A DNA stretch of 64,000 nucleotides from the IMG/VR virus record IMGVR_UViG_3300028559_000023, positions 12,922-76,921 of that record, one strand, 5' to 3'. A program made the translations under genes and the position numbers. Shown piece by piece: positions 18,290 to 43,056 of the stretch. The DNA is from a virus (taxonomy: Duplodnaviria; Heunggongvirae; Uroviricota; Caudoviricetes). Each line of letters starts with the position of its first letter. The stretch's first letter is position 1. The notes under the pieces are model-generated. The model did not search any database, had not been told where the DNA came from, and saw nothing but the letters and a program-made list of their open reading frames with translations.

Positions 18290-18322
18290 GCACCTCGGGC
18301 CGCTTTTCTTCGTTTATTTGTT
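18290..18322. repeat. 33-bp sequence GCACCTCGGGCCGCTTTTCTTCGTTTATTTGTT. Its exact reverse complement occurs at 43024-43056.
   Basis: Base-by-base comparison of 18290-18322 with the reverse complement of 43024-43056 gives a perfect 33/33 match, with mismatches immediately outside on both sides. Confidence 0.85.
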
Positions 18323-18359
18323 CATCTCGAAGATGCTGCGAAAGCGACTTCACGTTCGG

Positions 18360-18380
18360 GAACCCGTTAACTTAACCCTT
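18360..18380 (+). promoter_or_regulatory. conserved 21-nt motif GAACCCGTTAACTTAACCCTT, a putative phage-RNAP promoter (copy 1 of 4)
   Basis: Near-identical copies at 28962-28982, 57816-57836 and 43168-43188. All are intergenic and each sits upstream of a gene block; this copy lies 75 nt upstream of the lysis cassette. Confidence 0.5.
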
Positions 18381-18454
18381 AAACGCTCCCCCGGACATAA
18401 GCATGAATACTGAGAATATTCTTCTTATATTCTTAGTCAGTACAGAGGATTGTT

Positions 18455-18985
18455 ATGTTACCTATCGTTGCAAGCCTTTTGTCGAACGGCCTGAGCCTCC
18501 TGGGCAACGCAGTTTTGGCTAAAGGGAAAGATTGGGTTGAAGCGAAAACCGGTGTGGATCTTACGAGGGAGTCTCTGAGTCAAGAGGATCTGACCAAGCT
18601 CCGTATTGCCGAGATGGAACACGAAGAAGAGCTTCTACGAATCAAACAGAATGACGACCGGATCAGTCTGGAGTTTGAGCGGATGAAGCTGGACAATGTA
18701 AAAGATGCCAGGTCTATGCAGGTCACGGCTCTGTCTCAGAATGACTGGCTGGCCAAGAACTTTGTGTATCTTTTCATTGCCATCTGGTCAGTGGCCGCGA
18801 TGGTGTTCATCGGCGCAATAACATTTGGCGATGTCCCTGAAAATAACCAGCGCTTTGCTGATACCATTCTAGGCTTTGTGCTAGCCACTGTCCTTGGTGG
18901 TATTTTCCAATACTTACTCGGGACTACGCCGCAGTCTAAGGCAAAAGACAGCACTATCCAGAATCTTGCGGAGAAAGCATTATGA
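18455..18985 (+). CDS. membrane protein, putative holin or lysis-associated membrane protein
   Basis: 176 aa. It has an N-terminal hydrophobic segment, a charged central region and two C-terminal transmembrane-like segments (NFVYLFIAIWSVAAMVFIGAITFG; LGFVLATVLGGIFQYLLG). The stop overlaps the next start as ATGA. Confidence 0.4.
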   Translation: MLPIVASLLSNGLSLLGNAVLAKGKDWVEAKTGVDLTRESLSQEDLTKLRIAEMEHEEELLRIKQNDDRISLEFERMKLDNVKDARSMQVTALSQNDWLAKNFVYLFIAIWSVAAMVFIGAITFGDVPENNQRFADTILGFVLATVLGGIFQYLLGTTPQSKAKDSTIQNLAEKAL

Positions 18986-19308
18986 GCTTAGGTAAGGAAC
19001 AAGAAGCCTTCAGTCGTCACCTTGCGCTTCTCCTCATGGAGGCGTTTAATCGTGGCTATGAAGTGCGCATGGGTGAAGTGCAGAGAATGCCTGAAATGCA
19101 GCAGATTTACTTTAAAACAGGTAGATCCAAAACACTGAATAGCGCTCACTTGTCAAAGCTGGCTGCCGATCTCCATTTCACTAAAGCTGGTGTGCTCTGC
19201 TACCCAGATGAGCTTGGTAGATATTGGGAGTCGCTAGACCCTAAAAATCAGGCAGGCATGTTCTGGAAAACGTTCAAGGACTCTCCACACTTCGAGCGGA
19301 AAATTTGA
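18982..19308 (+). CDS. putative endolysin, M15-like metallopeptidase
   Basis: 108 aa. The ...NSAHLSKLAADLHF... and C-terminal ...DSPHFE motifs resemble the His/Asp zinc ligands of M15 / VanY-type cell-wall peptidases. Sits immediately after the putative holin. Confidence 0.45.
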   Translation: MSLGKEQEAFSRHLALLLMEAFNRGYEVRMGEVQRMPEMQQIYFKTGRSKTLNSAHLSKLAADLHFTKAGVLCYPDELGRYWESLDPKNQAGMFWKTFKDSPHFERKI

Positions 19309-19366
19309 TATCTTATATGAAGGCTCGATAATGGGCCTTTACCACCCACCAACCTAGGAGTCGCCA

Positions 19367-19600
19367 ATGGCGTCTAACGAAGCAGTCAGACAGGCTGACA
19401 TTTTGGACAAAGTGCAGTCGATGCGTTTCGCCATGTTTGAAAGTGAGCACAAGACACATCCGGCCGCCGACGAGCTGCGACGTCTCTCCAAAGAAAACGA
19501 AGAGCTTCTGGCGCTGCTGAAACGCACAACTGAAGAATGTATCTACCCAGGATACCTCGTGTCTGACATTTACGCGAAAGTTGTGGAGAAGATTAAATGA
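19367..19600 (+). CDS. hypothetical protein
   Basis: 77 aa. RBS AGGAG upstream. Confidence 0.55.
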   Translation: MASNEAVRQADILDKVQSMRFAMFESEHKTHPAADELRRLSKENEELLALLKRTTEECIYPGYLVSDIYAKVVEKIK

Positions 19601-19815
19601 CGAAGCTTGAGGAGCTCAAGTTGCGCATGTTTCAAAACAAGTACGGCGTGATGACCAGCAATGAAGCTCTTGAGTGCGCTATGCTCGATGATGGCATAGC
19701 TCGTGATTTGGCGACTCACGATCCCGCCAAGGCACGGTTCTGGCACAGCGCTCACGATATGCTTTCCTACGCAGAGCTTTTGGAGAAGAAAGAGGTATCA
19801 AATGCTGTACAATGA
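19597..19815 (+). CDS. hypothetical protein
   Basis: ATGA overlap with the upstream gene. 72 aa. Confidence 0.5.
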   Translation: MTKLEELKLRMFQNKYGVMTSNEALECAMLDDGIARDLATHDPAKARFWHSAHDMLSYAELLEKKEVSNAVQ

Positions 19816-20044
19816 ACAGCGTGTTGTGCTGAAGTTTGAAAACGACGCTGATGGTACTGAAAAAGCTTTTGTGGATCTTAATAGAGCATATGGCCACCCT
19901 TGCGGCGCCACTTCACCTCTTCAGGCACACGATTTCAAGACAACAGAGCTGGCCTTGGCGTATGCTGCACACTTCACGACGTATCCTCTAAAGATACGCC
20001 AAGAAGCGATCATCCTAAACATCAACGTAATCTGGATGGACTAA
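19802..20044 (+). CDS. hypothetical protein
   Basis: ATG at 19802 preceded by AAGAAAGAGG. This is the in-frame later start of track ORF 19703..20044. Confidence 0.5.
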   Translation: MLYNEQRVVLKFENDADGTEKAFVDLNRAYGHPCGATSPLQAHDFKTTELALAYAAHFTTYPLKIRQEAIILNINVIWMD

Positions 20045-20047
20045 CAA

Positions 20048-20590
20048 ATGAAATTCGAGAAAGTAACTGAGACTGCATACTACGCAGAAGACGGCTCACA
20101 CATTCTCAAAGAAGGCGACGAATGGGTAAAGCGAGACAGAAAGGGCAAACGCCTAGACTCAAGCAGCAATGCTGACATGTTACTGGGAGAAGTTGATTGG
20201 CGTGGTCGTGCGTATCCGTCTGTCAATCAGATCACGGTCAATGTCAACTCGAGTGTGACTTCGAAGAGTCTTGGACAGCTGCTTCGTGAAAAAATCTACG
20301 CCGACGAGGCTCAGCGAACGATCAAGATGTTCTTCAGGGATGTCCCTATTGGACAAACTTTCGTGGATGCCCACGGAAAAGTCTACGCGAAGGATGCAAC
20401 ATCGGCTAGCTGGGCACGTCGTTCACTTGACGGCGCAAACCGCCATTTTGCTCACGATGACGAAGTGGAACTCGTCGGATCCAGCACTCTAGTCAGTAAT
20501 TTCAATCAGGCTCCGGTCAAGTCCCACTTCTTCGCCGGTCCGCGACGTTACTTCAAGAGCGCTGTCGATATGTGTGTGAGGGCTTCATGA
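20048..20590 (+). CDS. hypothetical protein
   Basis: 180-aa ORF with a tight 3-nt gap from the upstream gene. Confidence 0.55.
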   Translation: MKFEKVTETAYYAEDGSHILKEGDEWVKRDRKGKRLDSSSNADMLLGEVDWRGRAYPSVNQITVNVNSSVTSKSLGQLLREKIYADEAQRTIKMFFRDVPIGQTFVDAHGKVYAKDATSASWARRSLDGANRHFAHDDEVELVGSSTLVSNFNQAPVKSHFFAGPRRYFKSAVDMCVRAS

Positions 20591-20946
20591 TGAAATGGCA
20601 GATTTGGTTTGCGTGGTACCCAGTGGCCTTCGGGCCGCATATTGCCTGGATGAAGTACGTCCAGCGTCGCAGAGACCTTGACGACGGTTCTTGGATCTAC
20701 AGGCGCGACATTTTTCCTTTGGACAGTCCTTCGTACCATTTCAGAAATCTTCCGTGCAGCGTAGTTCAAGACGAAGATCTTTGGTACGTTGCAGGGCACC
20801 TCTACAAGAATAATGAGATCACAATGTCCGGCATTCTTGAGTGGTGCACGAGTAAAGAAGACGCTGATGCAGTATGGCGTCGCATGGTAAACTCAGGCAC
20901 TGATTTCAGAAACCTCTACTTTGCAAAGTTTCTCGCAAATGACTAA
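20587..20946 (+). CDS. hypothetical protein
   Basis: ATGATG at 20587 overlaps the upstream TGA, with GAGGG 6 nt upstream. This is an in-frame later start of track ORF 20572. Confidence 0.5.
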   Translation: MMKWQIWFAWYPVAFGPHIAWMKYVQRRRDLDDGSWIYRRDIFPLDSPSYHFRNLPCSVVQDEDLWYVAGHLYKNNEITMSGILEWCTSKEDADAVWRRMVNSGTDFRNLYFAKFLAND

Positions 20947-21025
20947 ACCTACTCCCGCAGGCTGGTTCTGGCTGTGCTACACAGTCACAATCCTTTCAAT
21001 TCTCTCAACCATGGTGCAGTGGTGA
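20939..21025 (+). CDS. small hydrophobic peptide (28 aa, one predicted transmembrane segment)
   Basis: ATG at 20939 overlaps the upstream stop region. Product MTKPTPAGWFWLCYTVTILSILSTMVQW. Not in the track because it is under 60 aa. Confidence 0.3.
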   Translation: MTKPTPAGWFWLCYTVTILSILSTMVQW

Positions 21026-21152
21026 ACCAGATCAATTGGCTTAAAGAAATCGTCACATCTGACTCAAAGGATGACGAACCCTTCAATTCACCTTTCTTGT
21101 CTGCTTGGTTTTCGGACACCTCGATCTTAGATGCTGCTGACGCGCTAGGTGT

Positions 21153-21419
21153 GTGGTGCATGGGAGGTCCGCTTTGAGCTTCATTCAGAACGTATCCTTG
21201 GATGACATCGTAAAGGCCTGGCACTACGACCCTGGTGTTAACAGTATGTTGATACAGATCGTGGATGTCGAACGGCCGACTTTTCCGAAACCTTTGTATG
21301 TGTTTAAGGAGACGCATCAGTTTCGCTTCGACGACATCGATGAGGGCCTACAGCAATACGTCCAGGTCAGGCAGCGCAGATTGCCGATCTGCTACGAAAA
21401 GCTCTTGAACTACGAATGA
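21153..21419 (+). CDS. CX5R-family (tyrosine/dual-specificity-type) phosphatase, N-terminal part, upstream of a -1 frameshift
   Basis: GTG start. Contains the general-acid-like region FRFDDIDEG about 35 aa before the P-loop encoded in the next frame. Ends LPICYEKLLNYE with stop at 21417-21419. Confidence 0.45.
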   Translation: MVHGRSALSFIQNVSLDDIVKAWHYDPGVNSMLIQIVDVERPTFPKPLYVFKETHQFRFDDIDEGLQQYVQVRQRRLPICYEKLLNYE

Positions 21420-21574
21420 ACGTGATTGTCCATTGCGCGGCTGGTATTTGTAGGAGCGGTGCTGTAGTTGAAGCCGGCGTTGTTCTTGGCTTCGACGACA
21501 CACAGACAATGAGGATACCGAACACCCTTGTCAAGACATCAATCCTTGAACAACTAGGATTCAAACATCAATGA
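21416..21574 (+). CDS. CX5R phosphatase P-loop fragment (MNVIVHCAAGICRSGA...), in the -1 frame relative to 21153..21419
   Basis: HCxAGxxRSG is the signature active site of Cys-based protein/RNA phosphatases. The -1 frame is open from 21344 and encodes ...GQAAQIADLLRKALELRMNVIVHC. The overlap contains GAAAAG. Confidence 0.5.
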   Translation: MNVIVHCAAGICRSGAVVEAGVVLGFDDTQTMRIPNTLVKTSILEQLGFKHQ

Positions 21575-21873
21575 CCACCTTCGCCAATACTCTCAAAGCT
21601 GCAGCTAACCATCAGCTTGAGGACGGCCCTTATGAGACAGGCCATACCGGCAGAACACGCTACAGCTGCGTTGCAATACACTTTGAAGAAAGAAAACACA
21701 AGCTTGATATATCAGGTCCCTGCGAACTTTGGTATGCAGCCAACGCTTTCGGAGACCTGGATATCGATTGCGTACCCTCGCTGATCCGGTCTTCTTGTGG
21801 CGATGAAGCGCAGAATGTACGCTTTATGCTTTTGATGTTCATGTCCTATCTTGCCAAAGACTCGGGGTTGTGA
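21571..21873 (+). CDS. hypothetical protein
   Basis: ATGA overlap with the upstream gene. 100 aa. Confidence 0.5.
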   Translation: MTTFANTLKAAANHQLEDGPYETGHTGRTRYSCVAIHFEERKHKLDISGPCELWYAANAFGDLDIDCVPSLIRSSCGDEAQNVRFMLLMFMSYLAKDSGL

Positions 21874-22025
21874 TGCGTGAATTTCTTTTAGGGCTTGTGT
21901 GCTGTCTTGTTGCGTTCGCCATGGGGAGCTACATGGCAAGGACTAGAATAGAAAACGAGTGCAAAAACTTTGGGCTGTTCATAAGCGGCTCCAACAAATA
22001 CAGTTGCAAAACTGCGGAAAAATAG
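21873..22025 (+). CDS. small secreted/membrane peptide (50 aa) with an N-terminal signal-like segment
   Basis: ATG overlaps the upstream TGA. Product begins MREFLLGLVCCLVAFAMGSY... Not in the track. Confidence 0.35.
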   Translation: MREFLLGLVCCLVAFAMGSYMARTRIENECKNFGLFISGSNKYSCKTAEK

Positions 22026-22090
22026 CCATCCTATATGAAGAGCTCGAAAGAGTTACTTCTTAACCTACCAACCATCGAAGGAAACCTATC

Positions 22091-22489
22091 ATGCGTGAAA
22101 TTGCCATTTTTGCCGCGATCTGCCTGATCGCTTTGTTCTGCGCCGTTCTGTCGGTGTTCGGCCTCACCGTCGCCGCTTCTGCAGTCGCTGTTGCAGTTGC
22201 CGTTTCGGTGTTTGCTGGCGTGTTCGGTCAAGCTGTCAATCTCCTGTCTGTCGGCCTGTTGGCGATTTGGCGTGAGATTCTGTGGTTTCTGGAGCTGATG
22301 GGCGCACCCATTTTCTTCGGAATCTTGTTGCAGAAAATTGCAGTTGCCTACTTTGGTTACGGTGCCTTCGGTATCGCTTTCCTCAGCGGCTTCGGCTTGT
22401 TTCTGTTCAACGCAGCTGTCTACATTGTCATCTTCTGGGTGACCATGCGTCTCGTTCGTGAAGTTCAAATCATCGCAGCCAACGCCTAA
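22091..22489 (+). CDS. integral membrane protein (about 4 transmembrane segments)
   Basis: 132 aa, strongly hydrophobic throughout. A conserved leader AACCTACCAACCA lies 17 nt upstream of the ATG. Confidence 0.6.
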   Translation: MREIAIFAAICLIALFCAVLSVFGLTVAASAVAVAVAVSVFAGVFGQAVNLLSVGLLAIWREILWFLELMGAPIFFGILLQKIAVAYFGYGAFGIAFLSGFGLFLFNAAVYIVIFWVTMRLVREVQIIAANA

Positions 22490-22498
22490 GGAGGCAAT

Positions 22499-22720
22499 AT
22501 GCTCGCAATCATCTGGGTTACCATCGCTGCACTGTTGGCGATTGCTGCGCTCATAGTGGGCGCTTTTGAGAAAAACAAACTTCGGTTCCAAACCGAGTTC
22601 GCTGAAGAGCTTCGCAAAATGGAGGCTTGGGAAAAGGCCGGCGGTGTCTGGCTCACACTGCAAGAGAAGCACGCCGACGGGTGGCGCACTCAAGCTGTCT
22701 TGCAGGGGAGGCTGTCATGA
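22499..22720 (+). CDS. small membrane protein (1 transmembrane segment)
   Basis: RBS AAGGAGG upstream. N-terminal transmembrane segment IIWVTIAALLAIAALIVGAF. Confidence 0.55.
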   Translation: MLAIIWVTIAALLAIAALIVGAFEKNKLRFQTEFAEELRKMEAWEKAGGVWLTLQEKHADGWRTQAVLQGRLS

Positions 22721-23022
22721 GAAACCTCAGCAACATGCTTCGCTCAGCCAACAGCTTGCTTCGGCGGGCAAACGAAGCGTTAACCGAAGAGATTCGGAAA
22801 GCGCGCGACGAACACAAGAACAACAAAGAAGTTCTGAAGCTCATCGACGTCATCTGTATGCGACATCGACAGCATACGCTTCGCGAGACCACAGAGGCAA
22901 CACTTCGCAACCTGGTGAAAGAAGATCTCGACAACATCGTGGATCTTGTTGAGCTGGTGCTTCTGTGTACGACAACGCAGGCGCGGATGTTTGAGCTTGT
23001 GGCGCGCAACAAGGGCCGATAA
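22717..23022 (+). CDS. hypothetical protein
   Basis: ATGA overlap with the upstream gene; this is the in-frame later start of track ORF 22627. Its last 10 nt, including the stop codon, lie inside tRNA-Met. Confidence 0.45.
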   Translation: MRNLSNMLRSANSLLRRANEALTEEIRKARDEHKNNKEVLKLIDVICMRHRQHTLRETTEATLRNLVKEDLDNIVDLVELVLLCTTTQARMFELVARNKGR

Positions 23023-23089
23023 CTCAATAGGTTAGAGTAGCCGACTCATAATCGGTTAGTTACAGGTTCGAGTCCTGTTCGGCCCACCA
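23013..23089 (+). tRNA. tRNA-Met (anticodon CAT; elongator type or Ile2), CCA encoded
   Basis: Cloverleaf folded by hand. Acceptor GGGCCGA/TCGGCCC. D-stem ACTC/GAGT with GG in the loop. Anticodon loop CTCATAA. T-arm ACAGG-TTCGAGT-CCTGT. Discriminator A followed by CCA. Confidence 0.8.
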
Positions 23090-23543: not shown

Positions 23544-23767
23544 TCCAGTACTACGACTTCGCAATCCAGTTCACGGAAAGCACCTTCCTTGGCCTCGACA
23601 GTGGTTACAATCCGATTGAAGTTGACAGCATCAAGCACGCTTGTCGATTCGAGCGTTTTGAGTTGGCTGACAACTATCTCAAAAGCTGGCCGAAGGATCG
23701 TTTTCCAGCCTCTACAAGCATCGTGCGTGTGTACAACACCTCAGAGATCGTGAAACAGCGCGGTTGA
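23540..23767 (+). CDS. hypothetical protein
   Basis: ATGA overlap with the upstream gene. 75 aa. The 3' end overlaps the start of tRNA-Leu. Confidence 0.5.
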   Translation: MIQYYDFAIQFTESTFLGLDSGYNPIEVDSIKHACRFERFELADNYLKSWPKDRFPASTSIVRVYNTSEIVKQRG

Positions 23768-23842
23768 CGGAACCGGTAGACGTAGCGGGCTTAAAACCCG
23801 CAGCCGAAAGGCGTATGGGTTCGATTCCCATACCGCGCACCA
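23758..23842 (+). tRNA. tRNA-Leu (anticodon TAA), class II with long variable arm, CCA encoded
   Basis: Acceptor GCGCGGT/ACCGCGC. Anticodon stem GCGGG/CCCGC with loop CTTAAAA. Variable arm AGCCGAAAGGCGT. T-arm ATGGG-TTCGATT-CCCAT. Ends A + CCA. Confidence 0.75.
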
Positions 23843-25756: not shown

Positions 25757-28009
25757 ATGTCAGTAAAACTAACTAAATCGATAATTGTAGCATCCATAAC
25801 TAATCGACTTGCCAACGAAATAGCACCACAGAACCCTGTGTCTTTTTTACTAAAGCACACTGTGGATGACTACTACTCAGAACTCATAAGTACGCTGTAC
25901 CTGTACACAAGGCCCAAAAAGGGTGCCAAGTCGCAGAACATTTACTTCTCAGAGCTTATATCAGCTTTAGGCCACACAATACGCTCCAAACTAGGCCATC
26001 GTAAAGACTCGGCTGTTGCTGCAAAAACCGGAGCGTTTCTGTTGTATACGTTCCAGACCTTGGGCGTTCTAGAGTTGGTGGTCGTTGCAGGAAAATCACA
26101 TGCAACTTATGCAATAGTTGTTAAAGATGAAGAAGCAATTGCTGCAATATGGAGCACACTGTCTTTTGAAAAGGTTAGAAAGCTCCCCACACTTTCAAAG
26201 CCTTCAGATTGGGTCGGTACTAGACATCCTTCCGGTGTCATGATCGTGAAGACAGGTAGCTCAGAGGTGCTCAAGTCCTTGAGCCCTTCCAATCAGCCAA
26301 TGGTGTTTGAGTCTCTCAACAGATCACAACGTATCGGTTGGAATGTAAATAGCGAGTTGCTCACTGTTGCAGCCTGGGCCTTGAAGAATCGTACTGACGC
26401 TTTTGCGGATATCTGGGAGCAGGTCAACCCAGAAGCCAGGGCCACAAAAGTCAGAGAAGCAAAAGCTATCACTGACATGGGCAAACGGCTACTCAACAAA
26501 ACTTTTTACCATGTCTATTACTACGACTTTCGTGGTCGTAAGTACCCATCATCAGCCTATCTACACGAGCAAGGTTCTGACTTATCAAAAGGCCTATTGT
26601 TGCGAGCCGAAAGGAAACCGATAGGTGCAAGAGGCTATTGGTGGTTAATGGTCACTATCGCGTCGGAGTGGGCGGGTGATGCAGATAGATCTGACGGTCT
26701 TAAGACTGACAAGATACCTCTACAAAACCGATTTGAGTGGGCTGAGCGTCATGAAGATCTTTTGCTGTCTTATGCTGAAGCGCCGAAGATAAACACTGGA
26801 TGGATGTCTGCAGAAAATCCATGGAGATTCCTGGCTGGCTGTATTGAGCTTAAAAATCTACGAGTGTGGCAGTTCAACAACAACGATTTCAACAGCTACG
26901 GCTATCAATCTGGGTACTTGGGTTTCATAGACGGATCCAACAATGGTTGCCAACACCTTGCTGCTCTTACGCGAGACGAGGTTACGGCCGTACATGTGAA
27001 CCTTGTCAAACAGGAATACCCCGGTGATTTGTATCGTTATGTGGCTTCAAGCGTGTGGGAGAGCGTCAACGCTGAAGTGTCAAGGCTGCCAGCTGATGTA
27101 GTTGCACGCGCAGACGCTTTTATTGATGACCTGATGACTCTTAAACGCGAGATATCGGCGAAAGAATTCTCTGACGAGACAAGAGCGCCACTGGTAAACG
27201 CTCTGTTAGCGCTTAAGAACTCCAATCCTGATATCGATGTTATTACACCACAAGTCTTCTGGCGTCGCGTAGATAGCGCCAAAGAGAGGCGCAAGATTGT
27301 CAAACGAAACGTGATGACACTACCGTACGGAGGTACGCCATACGGTCTTGGAGAGCAGCAGATAAGTGACGCAAAGAAACATGGCATTGCGCTTCTGCTT
27401 CATATGCAACATCGATGGGCTGCTTTTATGGGGCGTCGTGTGTACGAAGACTGCAAGGTTTCTCTTAAGCGCCCTATGCAGCTTCTTAGCCTGTTTGAAG
27501 ACGCAGGCAGAAAGGCCGAGGAAGAAGGTCGCTTTCTTAGCTGGGTGGTCCCTATAACAAAGTTTCCCGTAGTTCAGAATTACACATCTGGAAAGATAAA
27601 GAAGATCTATGTGCAGTACGGTCCTCCAGTCGGTGCCAGAAAGAGTACTGGTTACTATGAGAACACACTGCAGATAAATATTTGTTTTATCGAAGATGTC
27701 GAGCCAACTAAGGGTAAACAAATTCAAGGCGCCAGTCCTAATGCAATCCACTCTCTAGACGCTGCTCATGTTGCCATAACCGTGTGCAATACTGACGCAG
27801 ATATCACTACTATCCACGACAGCTTTGGCGCTCTCCTTTCAGATATGGATGAGCTTTTTGTGTCTGTTAGAAAGTCATTTGTACAACTCTACAATGTAAA
27901 CCCTCTTAAGCAACTATTTGATGACATCGGCGCTGACATGTCAAATGTTTCATTTGGAAACTTGGACGTCTCAGCTATACTTGAATCTGAATACGCATTT
28001 AGCCCATGA
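25757..28009 (+). CDS. single-subunit DNA-directed RNA polymerase (T7-like), compact 750-aa form
   Basis: Carries ...IDGSNNGCQHLAALTRD... (compare T7 DGSCSGIQHFSAMLRD), ...HSLDAAHV... and ...IHDSFGALL... (T7 HDSFGT). Confidence 0.85.
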   Translation: MSVKLTKSIIVASITNRLANEIAPQNPVSFLLKHTVDDYYSELISTLYLYTRPKKGAKSQNIYFSELISALGHTIRSKLGHRKDSAVAAKTGAFLLYTFQTLGVLELVVVAGKSHATYAIVVKDEEAIAAIWSTLSFEKVRKLPTLSKPSDWVGTRHPSGVMIVKTGSSEVLKSLSPSNQPMVFESLNRSQRIGWNVNSELLTVAAWALKNRTDAFADIWEQVNPEARATKVREAKAITDMGKRLLNKTFYHVYYYDFRGRKYPSSAYLHEQGSDLSKGLLLRAERKPIGARGYWWLMVTIASEWAGDADRSDGLKTDKIPLQNRFEWAERHEDLLLSYAEAPKINTGWMSAENPWRFLAGCIELKNLRVWQFNNNDFNSYGYQSGYLGFIDGSNNGCQHLAALTRDEVTAVHVNLVKQEYPGDLYRYVASSVWESVNAEVSRLPADVVARADAFIDDLMTLKREISAKEFSDETRAPLVNALLALKNSNPDIDVITPQVFWRRVDSAKERRKIVKRNVMTLPYGGTPYGLGEQQISDAKKHGIALLLHMQHRWAAFMGRRVYEDCKVSLKRPMQLLSLFEDAGRKAEEEGRFLSWVVPITKFPVVQNYTSGKIKKIYVQYGPPVGARKSTGYYENTLQINICFIEDVEPTKGKQIQGASPNAIHSLDAAHVAITVCNTDADITTIHDSFGALLSDMDELFVSVRKSFVQLYNVNPLKQLFDDIGADMSNVSFGNLDVSAILESEYAFSP

Positions 28010-28961: not shown

Positions 28962-28982
28962 GAACCCGTTATCTTAACCCTC
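28962..28982 (+). promoter_or_regulatory. conserved motif GAACCCGTTATCTTAACCCTC, a putative phage-RNAP promoter (copy 2)
   Basis: 19/21 identity to the copy at 18360. Intergenic, 26 nt upstream of the SSB-like gene that opens the replication block. Confidence 0.5.
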
Positions 28983-29007
28983 TTCTTCTTTTCTACTAAA
29001 GGTACTT

Positions 29008-33179: not shown

Positions 33180-34005
33180 CGGCGATATCATCTGCTACCA
33201 GTGCACTTACAACATTTGGCAAAACAGGCTGCAGGATGCCGGTATAAAGCCAGACTCTAAAGGCATTTACAAGGTTACGTTAGACGCCGACGGGAACAAG
33301 TTCATACCGCCGATGACTCGCGAACAAGAGACTAAGTATCTAAAAACTTGTTGGGAAATCTTCAAGAAGAAGCTTAACGATCTACTTGAAGTAACCTACT
33401 GCGACGAGTTTGTCATGGCAGTCAAGGGAGGCTCTTCCTTCCGAGACCACATGTTTGATACGTATAAAGGCAACCGGGAGCAGACTGAAGAAGTTCGGAA
33501 TGCGTTTGTGCCGACAATAAGGCAACTGGCAGTTCATGAGCTAGATGCCATACCTTGTGTAGGATACGAGGCTGACGATCTTTTGCGTATATGGCGAAGA
33601 CAAGCCAACGAGGCTGGCCAAGATAATGTACTGTGCACTATCGACAAAGATCTGAAGTGTGAGCCAGGTCTCTACTTCAACATGCATAAGATGCACTGGA
33701 GGATGGAGACTATTAGCGAGCACGATGCACTTTACAACTACTACTACCAGCTAATCCTTGGTGACGGTACAGACAACGTACCTGGCATCCAAGGTGTGGG
33801 TAAGGTAGGTGCAAAACGCATACTATCCGGAGCCCTGACCGATAACGATTTTCAAGAAGCTGTTGTCGGGGCGTACATCGCAAGATACCAGGATAGCTGG
33901 TTCTCAAGTCTGCTTGCCAATGGGCGAATGATTCATTTATGGCGTTACCCTCACGACTATTTCAATCCTCGCGAGTGGGCTGTTGTTAGGGAGTTACTGG
34001 AATGA
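33160..34005 (+). CDS. 5'-3' exonuclease / flap endonuclease (FEN family)
   Basis: Motifs DGDIICY, GYEADD, CTIDKDL and the H3TH motif LILGDGTDNVPGIQGVGKVGAKR. Confidence 0.8.
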   Translation: MTIAIIDGDIICYQCTYNIWQNRLQDAGIKPDSKGIYKVTLDADGNKFIPPMTREQETKYLKTCWEIFKKKLNDLLEVTYCDEFVMAVKGGSSFRDHMFDTYKGNREQTEEVRNAFVPTIRQLAVHELDAIPCVGYEADDLLRIWRRQANEAGQDNVLCTIDKDLKCEPGLYFNMHKMHWRMETISEHDALYNYYYQLILGDGTDNVPGIQGVGKVGAKRILSGALTDNDFQEAVVGAYIARYQDSWFSSLLANGRMIHLWRYPHDYFNPREWAVVRELLE

Positions 34006-34487
34006 GCGTTTATACGGGTACTGTCCCCACAGTGAAGAGAGAGATTGTCGCCTCCAACGATAATGGACAGTGGGAATTTGGTAGCAAGATGGGCGTAGGT
34101 TTGGGGTTTGTGTATCTGGTGTATGACACCGTATTGCACCGCTTCTACATCGGTAGGAAGAACTATCAATCGCGGAGTAAAGGACGATTGGTTGAAAGTG
34201 ATTGGCGAAACTACCGCTCGTCTTCAAAGATCTTGGCTAGTCTATTGGAAAACAGGCCGCACGAAGAGTTTCGATGGATCTGTTTGGATCAGTATTTCAC
34301 AGCATCTGGGCTGGCTTATGCAGAAACTTGGTCGCTATGCTACGTCGAAGCACCGACTAAGAAGTACGTGTACAACAAGCGTATAGAGGCCATCACCTGG
34401 AACGTCAAAGAACCTGTATCTTTGCTTCACATGGCTACTCTAAACAAGTATAACGACATGGCAATCGAGTTTAACAAGACTGCTTAA
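34002..34487 (+). CDS. GIY-YIG endonuclease (homing-endonuclease-like)
   Basis: Motif GFVYLVYDTVLHRFYIGRKN matches GIY-x(10)-YIG. 161 aa. Inserted between the exonuclease and primase genes. Confidence 0.6.
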   Translation: MSVYTGTVPTVKREIVASNDNGQWEFGSKMGVGLGFVYLVYDTVLHRFYIGRKNYQSRSKGRLVESDWRNYRSSSKILASLLENRPHEEFRWICLDQYFTASGLAYAETWSLCYVEAPTKKYVYNKRIEAITWNVKEPVSLLHMATLNKYNDMAIEFNKTA

Positions 34488-38522: not shown

Positions 38523-38801
38523 ATGGACGACGAAGCATTTAGGAAGAGCCTCAGGTTTTGGCATATACCGGTGCTTATCTGGTATGGCACTAAAGTGTTG
38601 TGGGCAGAGGCTTCTGAGGACCCTCGCGAGGTTGCAGGTGTAGTACGCGATTTGCCAATGTGGGTGATCCGCTGCATGCTGCTTACTGACGCCAGTAAAC
38701 GGGCGAGAGGGCTTGAAAGCTCATTCGAAGAGTCTACAATTGAAATATGTAAGATAGAAAGGGATTTACGTGCAGTTCTTTCCGCTAAAAGCTCCGAATG
38801 A
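38523..38801 (+). CDS. hypothetical protein
   Basis: ATG at 38523; the track's TTG at 38517 is also in frame. 92 aa. Overlaps the ligase gene start by 32 nt. Confidence 0.4.
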   Translation: MDDEAFRKSLRFWHIPVLIWYGTKVLWAEASEDPREVAGVVRDLPMWVIRCMLLTDASKRARGLESSFEESTIEICKIERDLRAVLSAKSSE

Positions 38802-39675
38802 AGTTCCGATCAACTACCCAAACTACTTTAAGGAGCTACGGTATCCTCTCCTGATGTCCCCGAAGATTGACGGCTTTAGAGGTGGTGCTCACAAGGGCAC
38901 GATGCTGTCAAAGTCCTCAAAACCTTTTCGCAGCTACCAAGTCCATGAGGAGCTGACTGCGATCGACTTTTCTGATGGTGAGATCGTAGAGGGCAACGCT
39001 ACTGACAGTGATGTTTGTAATAGAACTAATAGTCACCTGATGTCTTTTAAGAAGCCTGGTGACCTCTTTTACTACATCTTCGACACGTGGAATCCTGCTT
39101 GCGCTCACTTCCCTTTCGAGCAAAGGCTGGCGCTTGTGCACGGCCAAGTAGCAACTCTGAATAACCCTCAGTATATTGCACTAGATCACTCATTCGTAAA
39201 CAACGAAGACGAACTCCTGGAAGCTGAGTCTAAGTTCATCCAGCTCGGCTATGAGGGTGTTATGTTACGGGATCCGCGAGGCACTTACAAGCCTGCACGG
39301 TCCACTTGGAACGAAGGCATCGTCCTTAAGTTGAAGCGTTTTGTGGACACAGAGGCTCTTGTTGTTGGCATCTACGAGCGAATGCATAACGACAACGCTC
39401 AGACTAGAGACGAACAGGGCTATGCGTTCAGGTCATCCTCCAAGACTAACTTAAAGCCTACAGGGATTGCTGGAGGCTTCATAGTTGACTTTAACGGTAC
39501 TCGCGAGGAAGTACCCGGCGGAAAATTCACACTTCCAGAATTGACATGGATTTTTCAAAACCAGGAAAAAGTTATCGGAAAGAAATACCTTAAATTCAAA
39601 TATATGCAGCATGGTATGAAAGATAAGCTGCGACACAAATCTGCCTTAGGTTTCCGCGACCCACTGGACATGTAA
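38770..39675 (+). CDS. ATP-dependent DNA ligase
   Basis: Motif I lysine in MSPKIDGFRG (KxDGxR). 301 aa, the size of compact phage ligases. Confidence 0.7.
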   Translation: MQFFPLKAPNEVPINYPNYFKELRYPLLMSPKIDGFRGGAHKGTMLSKSSKPFRSYQVHEELTAIDFSDGEIVEGNATDSDVCNRTNSHLMSFKKPGDLFYYIFDTWNPACAHFPFEQRLALVHGQVATLNNPQYIALDHSFVNNEDELLEAESKFIQLGYEGVMLRDPRGTYKPARSTWNEGIVLKLKRFVDTEALVVGIYERMHNDNAQTRDEQGYAFRSSSKTNLKPTGIAGGFIVDFNGTREEVPGGKFTLPELTWIFQNQEKVIGKKYLKFKYMQHGMKDKLRHKSALGFRDPLDM

Positions 39676-40677
39676 ATGAACGGTTTCAAAGCATCTACTA
39701 TTCGTAAGTTACTTAAGAAGAAGATTGACGAAGTATGCGAAAGCATTACGGACCCCGATATCAAGACTATCTTCAAGCGAGACGCAATTGTAAGCGGTGG
39801 TGCAATTGCTTCTTTTCTCCAAGGCGATCAACCTAACGACTACGACATTTACTTCAGCAATATTGAAACGACTGAGCGAGTTGCTAAATACTACGTTGAT
39901 AAGTTCAACGAGGCTGTTGGAAAGCTTACAACGGCTCCTGGTGTCAAGGAGTATGCTCCTACAGTCCGTCGTGAAAAACGTGTCAACATCAAGGGCATTG
40001 AAGAGGACCGTGTTGTCATCTTTATGAAGTCCGCTGGTGTTGCTGGCGAGAGCCAAGATGTCTACGACTATTTCGAGGGTCGTGCAGACGAAATCACAGA
40101 CGACTTTGTGGCCAGTCTTACAGAAGGCGCCACTGTCATGGGTAATACACCAGATGTGTTCCAAGCTGTGTCTGCGATCAAGGAAGAGCTCCGCGAATCA
40201 AAAGAGAAACTTCCATATCGACCTATCTTCCTGTCTGATAACGCTATTACGTTAGCTAACCGAGTTCAGCTGGTAATTCGTTTCTATGGGTCGCCTGCAG
40301 AGATTCACGTAAACTACGACTATGCGCATGCCATGTGCTTCTATAAGGCTGGCGAAGATGAGCTTTGCCTTCCGTCAGAAGCGCTACAAGCAATCTTGAG
40401 CAAAACACTGATCTATAAGGGCTCCTTGTATCCTGTCGCTTCCATCTTTCGTGTTCGAAAGTTCTTGAAGCGTGGTTGGAATATCAGTGCAGGTGAGCTG
40501 CTCAAGATCATGTTTCAGCTTAGTAAGATCGATCTGAGCAACCACGCAGTGTTGCGTGATCAACTGATCGGAGTTGATGCAGCATACATGAATCAGCTTG
40601 TTAACCTTATCAAGGCAAACGATGGTAAGGTTGATCAGGCGTATCTTGTTAAAATCATTGATGAGGTGTTTGAATGA
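39676..40677 (+). CDS. nucleotidyltransferase of the Pol-beta superfamily; its head motif resembles CCA-adding / poly(A) polymerase enzymes
   Basis: IVSGGAIASFLQGDQPNDYDIYF fits G[GS]-x(9-13)-DhDh. Compare the CCA-enzyme head motif VGGAVRDLLLGrppkDiDi. 333 aa. Confidence 0.45.
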   Translation: MNGFKASTIRKLLKKKIDEVCESITDPDIKTIFKRDAIVSGGAIASFLQGDQPNDYDIYFSNIETTERVAKYYVDKFNEAVGKLTTAPGVKEYAPTVRREKRVNIKGIEEDRVVIFMKSAGVAGESQDVYDYFEGRADEITDDFVASLTEGATVMGNTPDVFQAVSAIKEELRESKEKLPYRPIFLSDNAITLANRVQLVIRFYGSPAEIHVNYDYAHAMCFYKAGEDELCLPSEALQAILSKTLIYKGSLYPVASIFRVRKFLKRGWNISAGELLKIMFQLSKIDLSNHAVLRDQLIGVDAAYMNQLVNLIKANDGKVDQAYLVKIIDEVFE

Positions 40678-40898
40678 AGCGCGGCAGTCTGACGATTTTC
40701 TTAGAAGTTTTTGACCCGATTGACCCAACGGACCCGACTGAGCGTGTTATGCGTAAACGTCGTGTTGTTCTTTGGCGTGATCGCATGGTTACGGAAGATG
40801 AAGCTCGAAGCATTTTCACAAAGTTCAAGAACACCAACCCGTGGGTTGATACGAGTCACCTGGAAGCCTATATTTCATACGAACCGGTTAAGCTGTGA
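40674..40898 (+). CDS. hypothetical protein
   Basis: ATGA overlap with the upstream gene. 74 aa. Confidence 0.45.
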   Translation: MKRGSLTIFLEVFDPIDPTDPTERVMRKRRVVLWRDRMVTEDEARSIFTKFKNTNPWVDTSHLEAYISYEPVKL

Positions 40899-41275
40899 AA
40901 GAACCATACACAATCGGGCCAAATGAAGTGTTTGTGTTTGGTAGCAACCTCAGGGGCTACCATGGTGCTGGCGCTGCAAGAACTGCTCTTCTTAAGTACG
41001 GAGCTGTCTCAGGGTGTTCTGTAGGTCTTCATGGTAAATCGTACGCCATACCTACAAAAGACATACACTTAAAACCACTAAGCCTGGATAGTATCGCTAC
41101 TTCAGTAAAGCAATTCTTGATGTTTGCTGAGCACCACGATTTACTAACCTTCAAGGTAACTGATATTGGTTGCGGATTTGCAGGGTATACGCCCCTGCAG
41201 ATTGCGCCTTTATTCCTTCAAAGGTCAGCTAACGTTCTGTTGTCTGACCGCTTTATGAAAGCTCTAGATGAGTGA
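40895..41275 (+). CDS. macro-domain-like protein (possible ADP-ribose binding / hydrolase)
   Basis: GTG start overlapping the upstream TGA. VFVFGSNLRGYHGAGAARTALLKYGA aligns with the macro N-terminal motif NAAN..L.GGGV..AI..AG. VTDIGCGFAGYTPLQIAPLF aligns with the macro motif FP.I.tGv.G.p...aA. Confidence 0.4.
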   Translation: MKEPYTIGPNEVFVFGSNLRGYHGAGAARTALLKYGAVSGCSVGLHGKSYAIPTKDIHLKPLSLDSIATSVKQFLMFAEHHDLLTFKVTDIGCGFAGYTPLQIAPLFLQRSANVLLSDRFMKALDE

Positions 41276-41636
41276 TTTACGAACACTGATTCTTGAATAC
41301 GGTAAGGCTGTCTACATCAACGCCACAAAACCCTCCGATGAGAATCGGGATAAGGTCAGTGACGCTTTGAACAGGATCTCAGAGTCTGAGACAAACGGTA
41401 TCACAAAACGGATGTCCAACGACGAGTTTGTGAACTACATTTTCAGCTTTTCAAAAGCCGGCCCTATCGCACAGATGGTGCTTGTCTATGCCATGCAGGA
41501 ATACGTAACCAGGGTGGCTGATGGACCTCCTATGCTAGACGATCCAGAGAAGCCTCAGTTTATCGAGCCTTCTGCTTGGCAATCGGCATGTAAGATCTTA
41601 AAGTCAGAATTTGAGCAAAAATACGGGACACAGTAA
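41268..41636 (+). CDS. hypothetical protein
   Basis: 122-aa ORF. Confidence 0.5.
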   Translation: MSDLRTLILEYGKAVYINATKPSDENRDKVSDALNRISESETNGITKRMSNDEFVNYIFSFSKAGPIAQMVLVYAMQEYVTRVADGPPMLDDPEKPQFIEPSAWQSACKILKSEFEQKYGTQ

Positions 41637-42004
41637 TGCTTGCAGGCGAACAGTTTCAACATCACAACGATTTCTACTTCCACTACCTAAACGATGGTAG
41701 TCCTAAGAGTCACAACGCAAATCACAGCCATCGCGGCTTTACAGTCTTGGCTCGATCTTTCAGCCAACGACTTGTTGCTGTAACGGTTGCAAAGTGTTCT
41801 TGGGAAGACGAGTTCAGGAAGAAGGATGGCGCTCGCATTGCGCTTCAAAGGATGGACAATTCCAAGGCTGATTTGATCAACCGCCGGAACCTTCCTAAGT
41901 ACATCGCCGCTCAGTACCTTCGTATGAATGGTGTGAATCGCAGCCGAGTGAATAAAAAGTGGGCTGAAGAGCTCTTTATGCACACCCTCAAATCGGTGGT
42001 CTAA
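41636..42004 (+). CDS. hypothetical protein
   Basis: 122-aa ORF. Confidence 0.5.
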   Translation: MLAGEQFQHHNDFYFHYLNDGSPKSHNANHSHRGFTVLARSFSQRLVAVTVAKCSWEDEFRKKDGARIALQRMDNSKADLINRRNLPKYIAAQYLRMNGVNRSRVNKKWAEELFMHTLKSVV

Positions 42005-42862
42005 GTGTACGCAATCTACCATTCGAACTGTCCAGACGGCTTCACGGCCTTCATGGTGCTGTATAAGCATGTTGGCGGTAATGTCAAAGGCATCCCAGCT
42101 GGCTACTCCAAACTGCCTGATGTGTCAGATATTGCGCCAGAAAGTTTGGTCTACATACTTGACTATTCGGTCAAGAGAGCTACATTAGAGGCTTTGTTGT
42201 TGAAGAGCTGCAATGTGATTCTCCTGGACCACCACGAAAGCACCTTTAGAGAGCTCAAGGACTATCCAGCACATAAGTCTTTCTACAACTTCAGTGATCA
42301 GGCGTTTTCTGGAGCTATGCTCACTTGGCGTTTCTTGAACGGGCCTGAGGTTGCTGCGCCTTTGTTGGTGGAGTACGTTCAAGACTACGACCTATGGAAG
42401 TTCCAGCGGCCGTGGTCAGAGCAAATCAACGCGGCAATTCAATCGTACGATTTCACGGTGCAGAGTTATGAGGATCTGTGGAGCGGCATTGAAACCTCAA
42501 ATGGTTACGACAAATTGCTGCTAGAAGGTACGGCAATCGAGCGAAAGCTTAACAAGCTGTCCAGCACAATCATCGCATCGACGAAGCGGTGGATCGTTAT
42601 TGGTGGACATCGTGTACCAATCGCTAACGCCCCTTACGAGTTGGCCAGCAAGACAGCCACAAACCTCTCAAAGTTACACAAGGATGAGGCGCCATTTGCA
42701 GCCACGTACTTTGATAACAGTGAGGGACGACGAGTGTTCAATCTGCGAACCATCAACGATGATATCAAAGTGAATGAAGTTGCTGAATTCTTTGGGGGTG
42801 GTGGCCACCCCAAGGCGTCAGCTTTTAGTGTCGGTAACGATTCTTATTTGAGGAGCATCTGA
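42005..42862 (+). CDS. DHH/DHHA1-family phosphoesterase (NrnA / small RecJ-like)
   Basis: GTG start. DHH motif in VILLDHHEST. DHHA1 motif FFGGGGHPKA near the C-terminus. 285 aa. Confidence 0.65.
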   Translation: MYAIYHSNCPDGFTAFMVLYKHVGGNVKGIPAGYSKLPDVSDIAPESLVYILDYSVKRATLEALLLKSCNVILLDHHESTFRELKDYPAHKSFYNFSDQAFSGAMLTWRFLNGPEVAAPLLVEYVQDYDLWKFQRPWSEQINAAIQSYDFTVQSYEDLWSGIETSNGYDKLLLEGTAIERKLNKLSSTIIASTKRWIVIGGHRVPIANAPYELASKTATNLSKLHKDEAPFAATYFDNSEGRRVFNLRTINDDIKVNEVAEFFGGGGHPKASAFSVGNDSYLRSI

Positions 42863-43032
42863 TGAACGAAACCCAACTGTCGCGCCAACTTCTGGATGAA
42901 ATTTCCAAAAACTTTAAAGAGGAGATTGCCAAGAAGCCTAGCTGGGGCTCAAAGCAACTTGAGAACCTTTACGATCAAGTTGTAAGTAAAGTGCTTATGG
43001 ATAAGTTGTTCAATTCGCAAGTAAACAAATAA
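42862..43032 (+). CDS. small hypothetical protein (56 aa)
   Basis: ATG overlaps the upstream TGA, with GAGGAG upstream. Not in the track. The last 9 nt overlap the 33-bp inverted-repeat copy at 43024-43056. Confidence 0.4.
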   Translation: MNETQLSRQLLDEISKNFKEEIAKKPSWGSKQLENLYDQVVSKVLMDKLFNSQVNK

Positions 43033-43056
43033 ACGAAGAAAAGCGGCCCGAGGTGC
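43024..43056. repeat. 33-bp sequence AACAAATAAACGAAGAAAAGCGGCCCGAGGTGC, the perfect reverse complement of 18290-18322
   Basis: Exact 33/33 complementarity checked base by base. Sits at the left edge of the GC-rich island. Confidence 0.85.

What the first reader, a model, noticed from the sequence alone, without database searches (positions are those of the whole stretch)
18290..43056. Perfect 33-bp inverted-repeat pair separated by 24.7 kb, bracketing the lysis, early, RNAP and replication region
GCACCTCGGGCCGCTTTTCTTCGTTTATTTGTT at 18290-18322 is the exact reverse complement of 43024-43056. Flanking bases mismatch on both sides, so the boundaries are sharp. Neither copy forms an obvious hairpin by itself. 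One copy lies in the intergenic region before the lysis cassette. The other lies at the left edge of the GC-rich island, overlapping the last 9 nt of a small gene. Candidate roles are recombination or inversion sites, module-boundary sequences, or oppositely oriented copies of one regulatory or processing element.
Basis: seen in the sequence. Interest (0 to 1): 0.7.

Follow-up and report, generated by a model that had tools for sequence, protein, structure and literature searches.

The report
Inverted pair of phage operon-boundary elements
The perfect 33-base inverted repeat is real, but it is only the best-kept stretch of two oppositely oriented copies of a ~125-base, hairpin-forming intergenic element that marks the ends of two long gene blocks in an uncultured phage with a T7-type RNA polymerase. 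It most likely acts as a transcription terminator or insulator, not as a DNA inversion site.

Summary
GCACCTCGGGCCGCTTTTCTTCGTTTATTTGTT lies at 18290-18322 (+) and 43024-43056 (-), with no other copy and none in shuffles.

The repeat is not isolated. A profile built only from other phages hits the window twice, at 43025-43145 (+) and 18321-18202 (-). Both hits remain when the repeat is masked. So two ~125-nt GC-rich structured modules are inverted paralogues.

Each module follows the last gene of a long same-strand gene block. Each lies 40-110 nt upstream of a phage-RNAP-type promoter (GAAcCCGTTnnCTTAACCCTTA).

The 33-mer is one strand of the module's closing helix plus the adjoining U/A tract. 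In copy 1 it gives hairpin + UUUUCUUCGUUUAUUU on the sense strand, which looks like a terminator. In copy 2 the same sequence reads antisense.

The arrangement is conserved across an uncultured phage clade: region-2 copies 13/13 on +, region-1 copies 4/4 on -. The two copies of one genome resemble each other more than copies from other genomes (p≈5e-5).

All 24 contigs that cross either copy show one arrangement, and no recombinase was found, so inversion is not supported.

Best reading: paired terminator/insulator-like boundary elements. The role of the reversed copy is unresolved.

The parts
18290..18322 (+). Inverted-repeat copy 1 (33-mer). It reads T-rich on the sense strand and forms the 3' strand of the closing helix plus the U-rich tract of module 1.
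43024..43056 (-). Inverted-repeat copy 2 (33-mer). It reads A-rich on the sense strand and forms the 5' strand of the first hairpin of module 2. It overlaps the last 9 nt of the 56-aa ORF.
18174..18322 (+). Module 1. This is one long irregular hairpin, with 18179-18200 pairing with 18290-18310, followed by UUCGUUUAUUUGUU. It is homologous to module 2 in reverse orientation.
   Evidence: Folding gives -66.2 kcal/mol, z = -3.1. The local hairpin before the U tract is -15.5 kcal/mol. A profile built without window sequences hits 18321-18202 (-) at E = 1e-16.
43024..43152 (+). Module 2. It reads A-rich tract, then a 70-nt hairpin (43044-43114), then a small hairpin, then UUUUU (43138-43142).
   Evidence: The profile hits 43025-43145 (+) at E = 4e-21, and still at E = 2e-7 with the repeat masked. 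Its fold is -45.4 kcal/mol, z = -0.5, so it is not more stable than shuffles.
18360..18381 (+). Candidate promoter of the phage single-subunit RNAP, GAACCCGTTAACTTAACCCTTA, 38 nt downstream of copy 1 and upstream of the lysis genes.
   Evidence: (D4/D5); the motif is conserved in relatives
43168..43189 (+). Candidate phage-RNAP promoter, GAAGCCGTTGGCTTAACCCTTA, about 110 nt downstream of copy 2 and upstream of the conserved 206-aa gene.
28962..28983 (+). Third promoter of the same class, after the RNAP gene cluster. No module precedes it.
17687..18157 (+). 156-aa ORF, the last gene of the structural (late) block upstream of module 1.
18455..19308 (+). The 176-aa conserved membrane protein and the 108-aa endolysin-like protein, the first genes after module 1.
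42862..43032 (+). 56-aa ORF, the last gene of the replication block. Its differences from the relative are mostly synonymous, so it is a real gene.
43232..43852 (+). 206-aa protein of unknown function, highly conserved, and the first gene after module 2.
25757..28009 (+). T7-type single-subunit RNA polymerase (PF00940).

Best explanation
The two 33-mers are the best-conserved part of two inverted paralogous copies of one ~125-nt GC-rich, hairpin-forming intergenic element. The element's ends form a closing helix flanked by an A tract on one side and a T tract on the other. This is the architecture of a two-way intrinsic terminator.

One copy ends the structural (late) gene block. There the sense transcript carries a large hairpin followed by UUUUCUUCGUUUAUUU, a canonical factor-independent terminator placed just before the promoter of the lysis genes. 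The other copy ends the replication block in reversed orientation. There the sense transcript carries the A tract first, then the structure, then only a short UUUUU. It would therefore be a weaker terminator, a pause site, or a structure protecting the RNA 3' end before the next promoter.

Shown: the homology, the positions, the orientation, the folding of copy 1, conservation in relatives, co-evolution of the two copies, and the absence of inversion.

Inferred: that the elements act on sense-strand transcription or RNA, that the reversed copy still works because the element is nearly symmetric, and that the perfect identity in this genome reflects gene conversion or a shared recognition constraint.
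For: 1. Exact repeat, unique in the window.
2. Homology extends to about 120 nt in inverted orientation. A profile built without window sequences hits 43025-43145 (+) at E = 4e-21 and 18321-18202 (-) at E = 1e-16. With the repeat masked the E-values are 2e-7 and 1.3e-3. There is no third hit (alignments).
3. All ORFs of the region are on the + strand. Each module directly follows the last ORF of a block and precedes a conserved phage-type promoter.
4. Copy 1 folds as a 130-nt hairpin (-66.2 kcal/mol, z = -3.1). Its last 35 nt form a -15.5 kcal/mol hairpin followed by a U-rich tract. Orthologous copies in other phages do the same (L081 -23.5; L013, L138, L072).
5. In a third phage (L013) the same element lies in the sense orientation between tail-fibre-like genes and the lysis genes.
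6. A closing helix between the 5' A-tract/GC box and the 3' GC/T-run is predicted in 20 of 20 modules (-16 to -36 kcal/mol), with different sequences in different phages.
7. Unrelated bacterial terminators contain the same GGGCCGCTTTTCTTCGTTT string.
8. Orientation is fixed across the clade: 13/13 region-2 copies on +, 4/4 region-1 copies on -.
9. The two copies of one genome are more alike than copies from different genomes (permutation p ≈ 5e-5).
Against: - In copy 2 the long conserved U tract is on the antisense strand. The sense-strand terminator features are weak: a -6.9 kcal/mol hairpin plus U5. Module 2 as a whole is no more stable than shuffled sequence (z = -0.5).
- The 23-nt core GGGCCGCTTTTCTTCGTTTATTT is identical in 5 copies from 3 phages whose proteins are about 60% identical. 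That is tighter than a generic U tract needs. It hints at sequence-specific recognition by a protein, by the RNAP, or by a complementary RNA.
- Several distant relatives lack a clear U run after the structure.
- No transcript data exist, and the strand on which the structure matters could not be determined. The sense-versus-antisense stability bias equals the genomic background.
Confidence: 0.5

Rival explanations
1. DNA-level polar site. The asymmetric 23-33 bp core is bound by one sequence-specific phage factor, or recognised sequence-specifically by the phage RNAP. The two sites face each other across the lysis/early/RNAP/replication segment. They would act as polar barriers or signals for replication, transcription or packaging, in the way that Ter sites or mTERF sites are polar.
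For: - The core is identical in 5 copies of 3 phages, while its flanks vary.
- The two copies of a genome change together, as promoters do when they track their polymerase.
- Inverted orientation is conserved clade-wide.
- The element has the same polarity as seen from any point between the two copies. This follows from the geometry.
Against: - No candidate binding protein was identified. The adjacent 206-aa protein has no recognisable fold or domain.
- The rest of the module behaves like a folding single strand, with a closing helix whose sequence varies between phages. A duplex binding site does not need that.
- In distant relatives the tract changes greatly in sequence.
Confidence: 0.18
2. 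Antisense terminator. Copy 2 is a working intrinsic terminator for minus-strand transcripts, either an antisense RNA or stray transcription entering the replication block from the right. Copy 1 terminates plus-strand transcripts. Together they would insulate the 18.3-43.0 kb segment from incoming transcription on both sides.
For: - The long U tract after a GC helix is on the minus strand at copy 2 in every relative examined.
- In the close relative the minus-strand hairpin is intact (-11.6 kcal/mol).
- The relative's copy 2 matches the window's copy 1 over 40 nt, including the full hairpin.
Against: - There are no minus-strand genes.
- No minus-strand phage-type promoter exists in the 64-kb window.
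- Sigma-70-like sites occur at chance level.
- The spacer to the right of the module is poorly conserved.
- In the window the minus-strand local hairpin has decayed to -5.2 kcal/mol.
- In several relatives the sequence right after the helix is not U-rich (TGGAAGTG...).
Confidence: 0.12
3. RNA-RNA pairing in trans. All genes are on one strand, so the sense RNAs of the two regions are perfectly complementary over 33 nt. The 3' end of late mRNA would pair with the 3' end of the replication-block mRNA. This would create a double-stranded RNase III substrate or mask a stabilising structure, switching off middle genes late in infection.
For: - Complementarity is perfect over 33 nt here, and over 23 nt in the close relative.
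- In phage g34072 the only two differences in 23 nt are both G·U-compatible in a sense-sense duplex.
- Within-genome co-evolution of the two copies.
Against: - In other genomes the differences are not pairing-compatible. This holds for g37541, for g20049 and for the window's own mismatch at position 36.
- In g35187 little complementarity is left.
- If copy 1 terminates transcription, about half of the 33-mer is absent from the RNA and the rest is buried in the hairpin.
- W1 is as similar to the relative's copy 2 as to its own partner, which fits a shared ancestral motif.
Confidence: 0.07
4. Crossover sites of an invertible 24.7-kb segment, or substrates for homologous inversion.
For: An exact inverted repeat brackets a defined segment.
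Against: - 24 of 24 contigs crossing either copy show one arrangement.
- The arrangement and the strand of all flanking genes are fixed in relatives with about 50% protein identity.
- No recombinase domain was found.
- Inversion would turn the RNAP and replication genes away from their promoters' block order.
Confidence: 0.02

Closest known systems
Factor-independent (intrinsic) terminators, including class I terminators of T7-type RNAP such as T7 Tφ, and two-way bacterial terminators with an A tract, a hairpin and a U tract
   Same: - A GC-rich helix is flanked by an A tract and a U tract.
- Copy 1 has a hairpin plus U-rich tail on the sense strand, directly after the last gene of a block and before the next promoter.
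- The core string also occurs in ordinary bacterial terminators.
   Different: - The 'hairpin' is a 110-130-nt multi-part structure, not a 20-40-nt stem-loop.
- The copies form a conserved paralogous pair in opposite orientation in a genome with no convergent genes.
- The tract sequence is conserved far more tightly than U-richness requires.
- The copy-2 sense-strand signal is weak.
RNase III processing sites in T7 intergenic regions (own knowledge of T7 biology, not tested here)
   Same: Both are long irregular hairpins in intergenic regions of a one-strand genome transcribed by a T7-type RNAP, often next to promoters. Orientation matters little for a double-stranded RNA substrate.
   Different: Cleavage cannot be tested here. 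T7 sites are about 60 nt, are not kept as co-evolving pairs, and have no conserved flanking A/U tracts.
Invertible segments (Gin/gix of Mu, Cin/cix of P1, Hin/hix)
   Same: Short inverted repeats bracket a DNA segment in a phage genome.
   Different: Known invertible segments are 1-4 kb, carry tail-fibre genes and lie next to a serine invertase gene, and both orientations coexist. Here the segment is 24.7 kb of essential genes, no invertase was found, and only one orientation is seen.
REP/BIME-type extragenic palindromes
   Same: Both are GC-rich imperfect palindromes at the 3' ends of genes, found in either orientation, with proposed roles in mRNA 3' end protection and termination.
   Different: REPs are 35-40 nt and highly repeated. 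Here there are exactly two copies per genome at fixed, syntenic positions.

Membership tests
Intrinsic / class I terminator | Stable GC-rich hairpin immediately followed by a U-rich tract on the transcribed strand: copy 1 | tested here: met
   The 35 nt before the tract fold at -15.5 kcal/mol. The whole module folds at -66.2 kcal/mol (z = -3.1). It is followed by UUUUCUUCGUUUAUUU.
Intrinsic / class I terminator | Stable GC-rich hairpin immediately followed by a U-rich tract on the transcribed strand: copy 2 | tested here: inconclusive
   The sense strand has only a -6.9 kcal/mol hairpin plus UUUUU. The long U tract lies on the antisense strand, and module 2 has z = -0.5.
Intrinsic / class I terminator | Lies after the last gene of a co-directional transcription unit | tested here: met
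   Module 1 follows ORF 17687-18157. Module 2 follows ORF 42862-43032. Each is followed by a phage-type promoter.
Intrinsic / class I terminator | RNA 3' ends or RNAP release at the site | not testable with these tools
   No transcript data are available, and the phage is uncultured: it has no relatives among sequenced isolates.
Two-way (bidirectional) terminator | A tract and U tract flank one helix, so that either strand reads hairpin + U run | tested here: met
   W1 pairs GAAAACGGC with GCCGCUUUUC. W2 pairs AAAAGCGGCC with GGCUGUUUU. A closing helix is predicted in 20 of 20 modules.
Two-way (bidirectional) terminator | Sits between convergently transcribed units | tested here: not met
   All ORFs are on the + strand, and no minus-strand phage promoter was found.
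Site-specific invertible segment | Both orientations of the segment present in the population | tested here: not met
   10 contigs across copy 2 and 14 across copy 1 all show the same arrangement.
Site-specific invertible segment | Recombinase (serine invertase or tyrosine recombinase) encoded nearby | tested here: not met
   No such domain appears in 30 proteins scanned, nor in the precomputed Pfam hits for 16-21.5 kb and 32-53 kb. Small ORFs and the ~13 kb of genome outside the window were not scanned.
Any described RNA family (Rfam 15) | Covariance-model match | tested here: not met
   Only 4 tRNAs reach gathering threshold in the window. Nothing meaningful appears at E ≤ 10 in either intergenic region.
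T7-type RNase III processing site | Long irregular double-stranded hairpin in an intergenic region of the sense transcript | tested here: inconclusive
   W1 fits structurally. W2 fits less well. Cleavage cannot be tested here.

The most novel reading that the evidence does not exclude
The two inverted copies may be functionally coupled rather than two independent terminators. They could be kept alike within each genome in one of two ways. The same phage factor, possibly the single-subunit RNAP itself, may read the asymmetric core in opposite polarity at the two ends of the early/replication segment. Alternatively, the two sense RNAs may pair with each other to time the shut-off of middle genes. 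Either would be a previously undescribed control element of a large uncultured phage clade that uses T7-type transcription.
Probability: 0.2. Interest if true: 0.7.

Novelty: new variant of a known kind. Interest (0 to 1): 0.42.

Why it matters
- It defines the transcription-unit boundaries, and with the promoter motif the likely transcription programme, of an abundant uncultured phage clade. The clade has 62-86 kb genomes and T7-type RNAP, and is found in many metagenomes.
- It adds a conserved structured element absent from Rfam.
- It gives a clear case of two distant inverted non-coding paralogues that co-evolve within genomes. This raises a testable question: gene conversion, or a shared reader?
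- If the elements are efficient terminators for this orthogonal single-subunit RNAP, the promoter/terminator/RNAP set could be useful in synthetic biology.
- It also shows that a 'perfect inverted repeat bracketing a module' need not mean an invertible segment.

Tried and rejected
- Megablast of both regions against sequenced phages found nothing. The exact 33-mer, 23-mer and 18-mer are absent from IMG/VR.
- A 19-mer scan of GTDB genomes gave four hits. All are unrelated bacterial terminators or chance matches, not relatives.
- The Rfam searches were negative.
- Sigma-70 promoter and simple terminator scans were at chance level. They do not see the modules, because the stems are too long and branched.
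- I tried to identify the folding strand from MFE(+) versus MFE(-). Modules favour the sense strand in 27 of 36 cases, but random 130-mers of the same genomes do so in 69-75% of cases. The test is uninformative.
- RNAalifold on the MAFFT alignment of 11 copies returned no consensus pairs, because the interior is not alignable by sequence. I did not build a covariance model.
- Counting G·U against A·C in the closing helix gave contradictory signals between copies (reasoned).
- The trans-pairing test by type of mismatch was mixed.
- The 206-aa neighbour gave an AlphaFold model with pLDDT 80, but no PDB or BFVD fold match and no PDB sequence match.
- A 'module-exchange linker' role was not pursued. 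Inverted copies cannot mediate a simple exchange.
- The literature searches found nothing on this clade or element.


Full report
OBSERVATION. The sequence GCACCTCGGGCCGCTTTTCTTCGTTTATTTGTT occurs at 18290-18322 on the + strand and at 43024-43056 on the - strand. Allowing three mismatches gives no further copy, and no match occurs in 100 dinucleotide-preserving shuffles. It is by far the longest inverted repeat of the window and extends to 36 nt with one mismatch. Copy 1 lies in the 297-nt gap between ORF 17687-18157 and ORF 18455-18985. Copy 2 overlaps the last 9 nt of the 56-aa ORF 42862-43032. The repeat is present in independent assemblies from several samples. Contigs built with k = 31 break exactly at its edges, as expected for a 33-nt repeat: L007 ends at 43056, and L151 and L152 start at 18290.

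CONTEXT. Every credible ORF is on the + strand. The window is part of a phage genome of about 76.9 kb. The order of features is:
- giant structural proteins up to 18.1 kb;
- a membrane protein and an endolysin-like protein at 18.4-19.3 kb;
- small genes and tRNAs;
- a T7-type single-subunit RNAP at 25757-28009 (PF00940);
- a replication block at 29-43 kb with DNA polymerase A, exonuclease, primase-helicase, RNR, ligase and a DHH phosphoesterase;
- many small genes from 43.2 to 57.8 kb;
- an AT-rich gap, then terminase and portal genes.

There is no close relative among sequenced phage isolates. The best RNAP match is 32% identical.

A 22-nt motif, GAAcCCGTTnnCTTAACCCTTA, occurs three times, always on + and always in front of a gene block: at 18360, 28962 and 43168. 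It is conserved upstream of the orthologous genes in dozens of related metagenomic phages. I read it as the promoter of the phage RNAP. This is an inference from position, conservation and the analogy with T7-type phages. Both repeat copies lie just upstream of such a promoter, by 38 nt for copy 1 and about 110 nt for copy 2.

THE REPEAT IS PART OF A LARGER ELEMENT. A relative with a 62% identical DHH protein (L009-L011, L014) has both regions. A third, more distant phage (L013) has the region-1 copy. The 23-nt core GGGCCGCTTTTCTTCGTTTATTT is identical in all five copies. The relative's copy 2 matches the window's copy 1 over 40 nt at 95%, so the ancestral shared unit was longer than 33 nt and included a complete hairpin. 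Aligning the copies in one orientation shows homology over about 125 nt.

As a formal test I built a profile from copies of other phages only. It hits the window exactly twice:
- 43025-43145 (+), E = 4e-21;
- 18321-18202 (-), E = 1e-16.

With the 36-nt repeat masked, both hits remain, at E = 2e-7 and E = 1.3e-3. A profile made only from region-2 copies still finds region 1 on the opposite strand at E = 1e-9. The 'sharp boundaries' therefore hold only for perfect identity.

STRUCTURE. Module 1 (18174-18312) folds into one long irregular hairpin of -66.2 kcal/mol, z = -3.1. The first 21 nt of the 33-mer form the 3' strand of the closing helix, paired with 18179-18200. The rest of the 33-mer is a U-rich tail. 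The 35 nt before the tail fold locally at -15.5 kcal/mol.

Module 2 (43034-43152) folds less well: -45.4 kcal/mol, z = -0.5. Here the GC part of the 33-mer is the 5' strand of a 70-nt hairpin. The sense strand ends with a weak hairpin (-6.9 kcal/mol) plus UUUUU.

In 20 of 20 modules from different phages, the 5' A-tract/GC box can pair with the 3' GC/T-run box, at -16 to -36 kcal/mol. The sequences differ between phages. For example, the window has AAAAGCGGCC/GGCUGUUUU and L036 has UUUAAAUCGCCCC/GGGGCAGUUUGAAA. The element is thus 'A tract, large GC-rich structure, U tract', the form of a two-way intrinsic terminator. The string GGGCCGCTTTTCTTCGTTT also turns up in ordinary terminators of unrelated bacteria. 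No Rfam family matches.

FAMILY-WIDE PICTURE. The 206-aa protein after module 2 and the 176-aa protein after module 1 both belong to large families found on 60-86 kb metagenomic contigs with the same gene order. I fetched 38 region-2 loci and 80 region-1 loci from IMG/VR. The module profile hits 13 region-2 loci, all on the + strand. It hits 4 region-1 loci, all on the - strand. So the inverted arrangement is old and fixed.

For ten genomes with both regions, I scored the inverted similarity between region 1 and region 2. It is higher within a genome than between genomes (permutation p ≈ 5e-5). The same-genome pair ranks first in g28581, g37541, g20049 and g34072. Two examples:
- g37541 shares ...ATTTATTTTCAG(T)AGTTT between its two copies;
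- g20049 shares an interior 22-mer plus GGAAnTGAnTATTTG, neither of which is shared with its closest relative L031.

The two copies therefore co-evolve, by gene conversion or by a shared constraint. The window's copy 1 is as similar to the relative's copy 2 as to its own partner. So conservation of a common ancestral motif also contributes.

INVERSION. All 10 contigs that cross copy 2 and all 14 that cross copy 1 have the same arrangement. Synteny and strand are fixed in relatives at about 50% protein identity. No invertase or integrase domain appears in the proteins scanned or in the precomputed annotations. The inversion reading is rejected.

MECHANISM. For copy 1 the terminator reading is straightforward. 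It has a strong structure plus a U tract on the sense strand, at the end of the late block, before a promoter. In L013 it sits directly before the next gene, where it would act as an attenuator.

Copy 2 is the open point. Its sense strand carries only weak terminator features, while its antisense strand carries the long, conserved U tract. Yet I found no minus-strand genes, no minus-strand phage promoter, and no above-chance sigma-70 signal.

I could not determine which strand folds. The excess stability of the sense strand (27 of 36 modules) equals the background of the same genomes, 69-75%.

I therefore commit, at about 0.5, to this reading: the two copies are a paralogous pair of terminator/insulator-like boundary elements acting on sense transcripts, with the reversed copy tolerated or exploited as a weaker signal because the element is nearly symmetric. 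Three rivals remain:
- a polar DNA site read by one factor (0.18);
- a true minus-strand terminator (0.12);
- trans pairing of the two sense RNAs (0.07).

The unusually tight conservation of the tract and the within-genome co-evolution are the observations the main explanation accounts for least well.

NOVELTY AND VERDICT. The element family is undescribed. It has no Rfam match, there are no cultured relatives, and I found nothing in the literature searched. By form and position, however, it is a variant of a known kind, the intrinsic terminator or operon-boundary structure. The finding is real and more extended than reported. Its most eye-catching interpretation, an invertible 24.7-kb segment, is wrong. 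Its third suggestion, oppositely oriented copies of one regulatory or processing element, is right. Interest is moderate. It would be higher if the coupling between the two copies proves functional.

Noticed in passing
window 57798-58080: A second promoter-like class, CGAACCCGTTAAATTAACGATATACG, shares its left half with the main promoter and has a different right half. It is followed by a 240-nt AT-rich gap before the terminase genes. The motif CGTTAAATTAATGATAT recurs upstream of the 206-aa homologue in distant relatives (L051, L057, L058, L061).
   Followed up: partly
L019 ~9930-9960, L021, L023, L049, L051, L057, L058, L060, L061 (upstream of the 206-aa homologue): A conserved GGTATCTTATATG box followed by a short hairpin lies between the phage promoter and the 206-aa gene in many relatives. 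It is absent from the window. It could be a host-type promoter or an operator.
   Followed up: no
window 43232-43852: The 206-aa protein is one of the best-conserved proteins of the clade: 83-87% identical in the close relative and 45-60% in many others. It has no Pfam domain, no PDB sequence match and no fold match, although the AlphaFold model has pLDDT 80 and is mostly helical.
   Followed up: yes
L072 993-1034: The region-1 module of phage g37541 carries a perfect tandem duplication of CCCCCGGCAGGGTAGCAGGTT. This is the conserved TAGCAGGTT box of the module family.
   Followed up: no
L007 end; L151 and L152 start: Contigs assembled with k = 31 end or start exactly at the edges of the 33-mer. 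This is an assembly-graph effect of the repeat, not a biological end.
   Followed up: yes
window 23013-23089, 23758-23842, 47687-47762, 49417-49493: Four phage tRNA genes (Met-CAT, Leu-TAA, Thr-TGT, Arg-TCT), all on the + strand.
   Followed up: no
window 39676-40677; 34002-34487; 53170-53964; 16491-16565: Four incidental gene features: a Gad2-like protein (PF26128), a SegE-like GIY-YIG endonuclease, an SPFH/Band-7 protein, and collagen-like repeats inside the 2709-aa structural protein. Relatives carry Tad3- and Acb3-like anti-defence genes near region 2 (L019).
   Followed up: no
window 18259-18275 and 43070-43087: A short direct (same-strand) similarity, GGATGCCTGCCCCATGG versus GGATGACTACCCCCATGG, lies 13-14 nt from the 33-mer in both regions, on opposite sides of it. 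It contains the palindrome CCATGG. It may reflect the near-symmetry of the module rather than a separate motif.
   Followed up: partly
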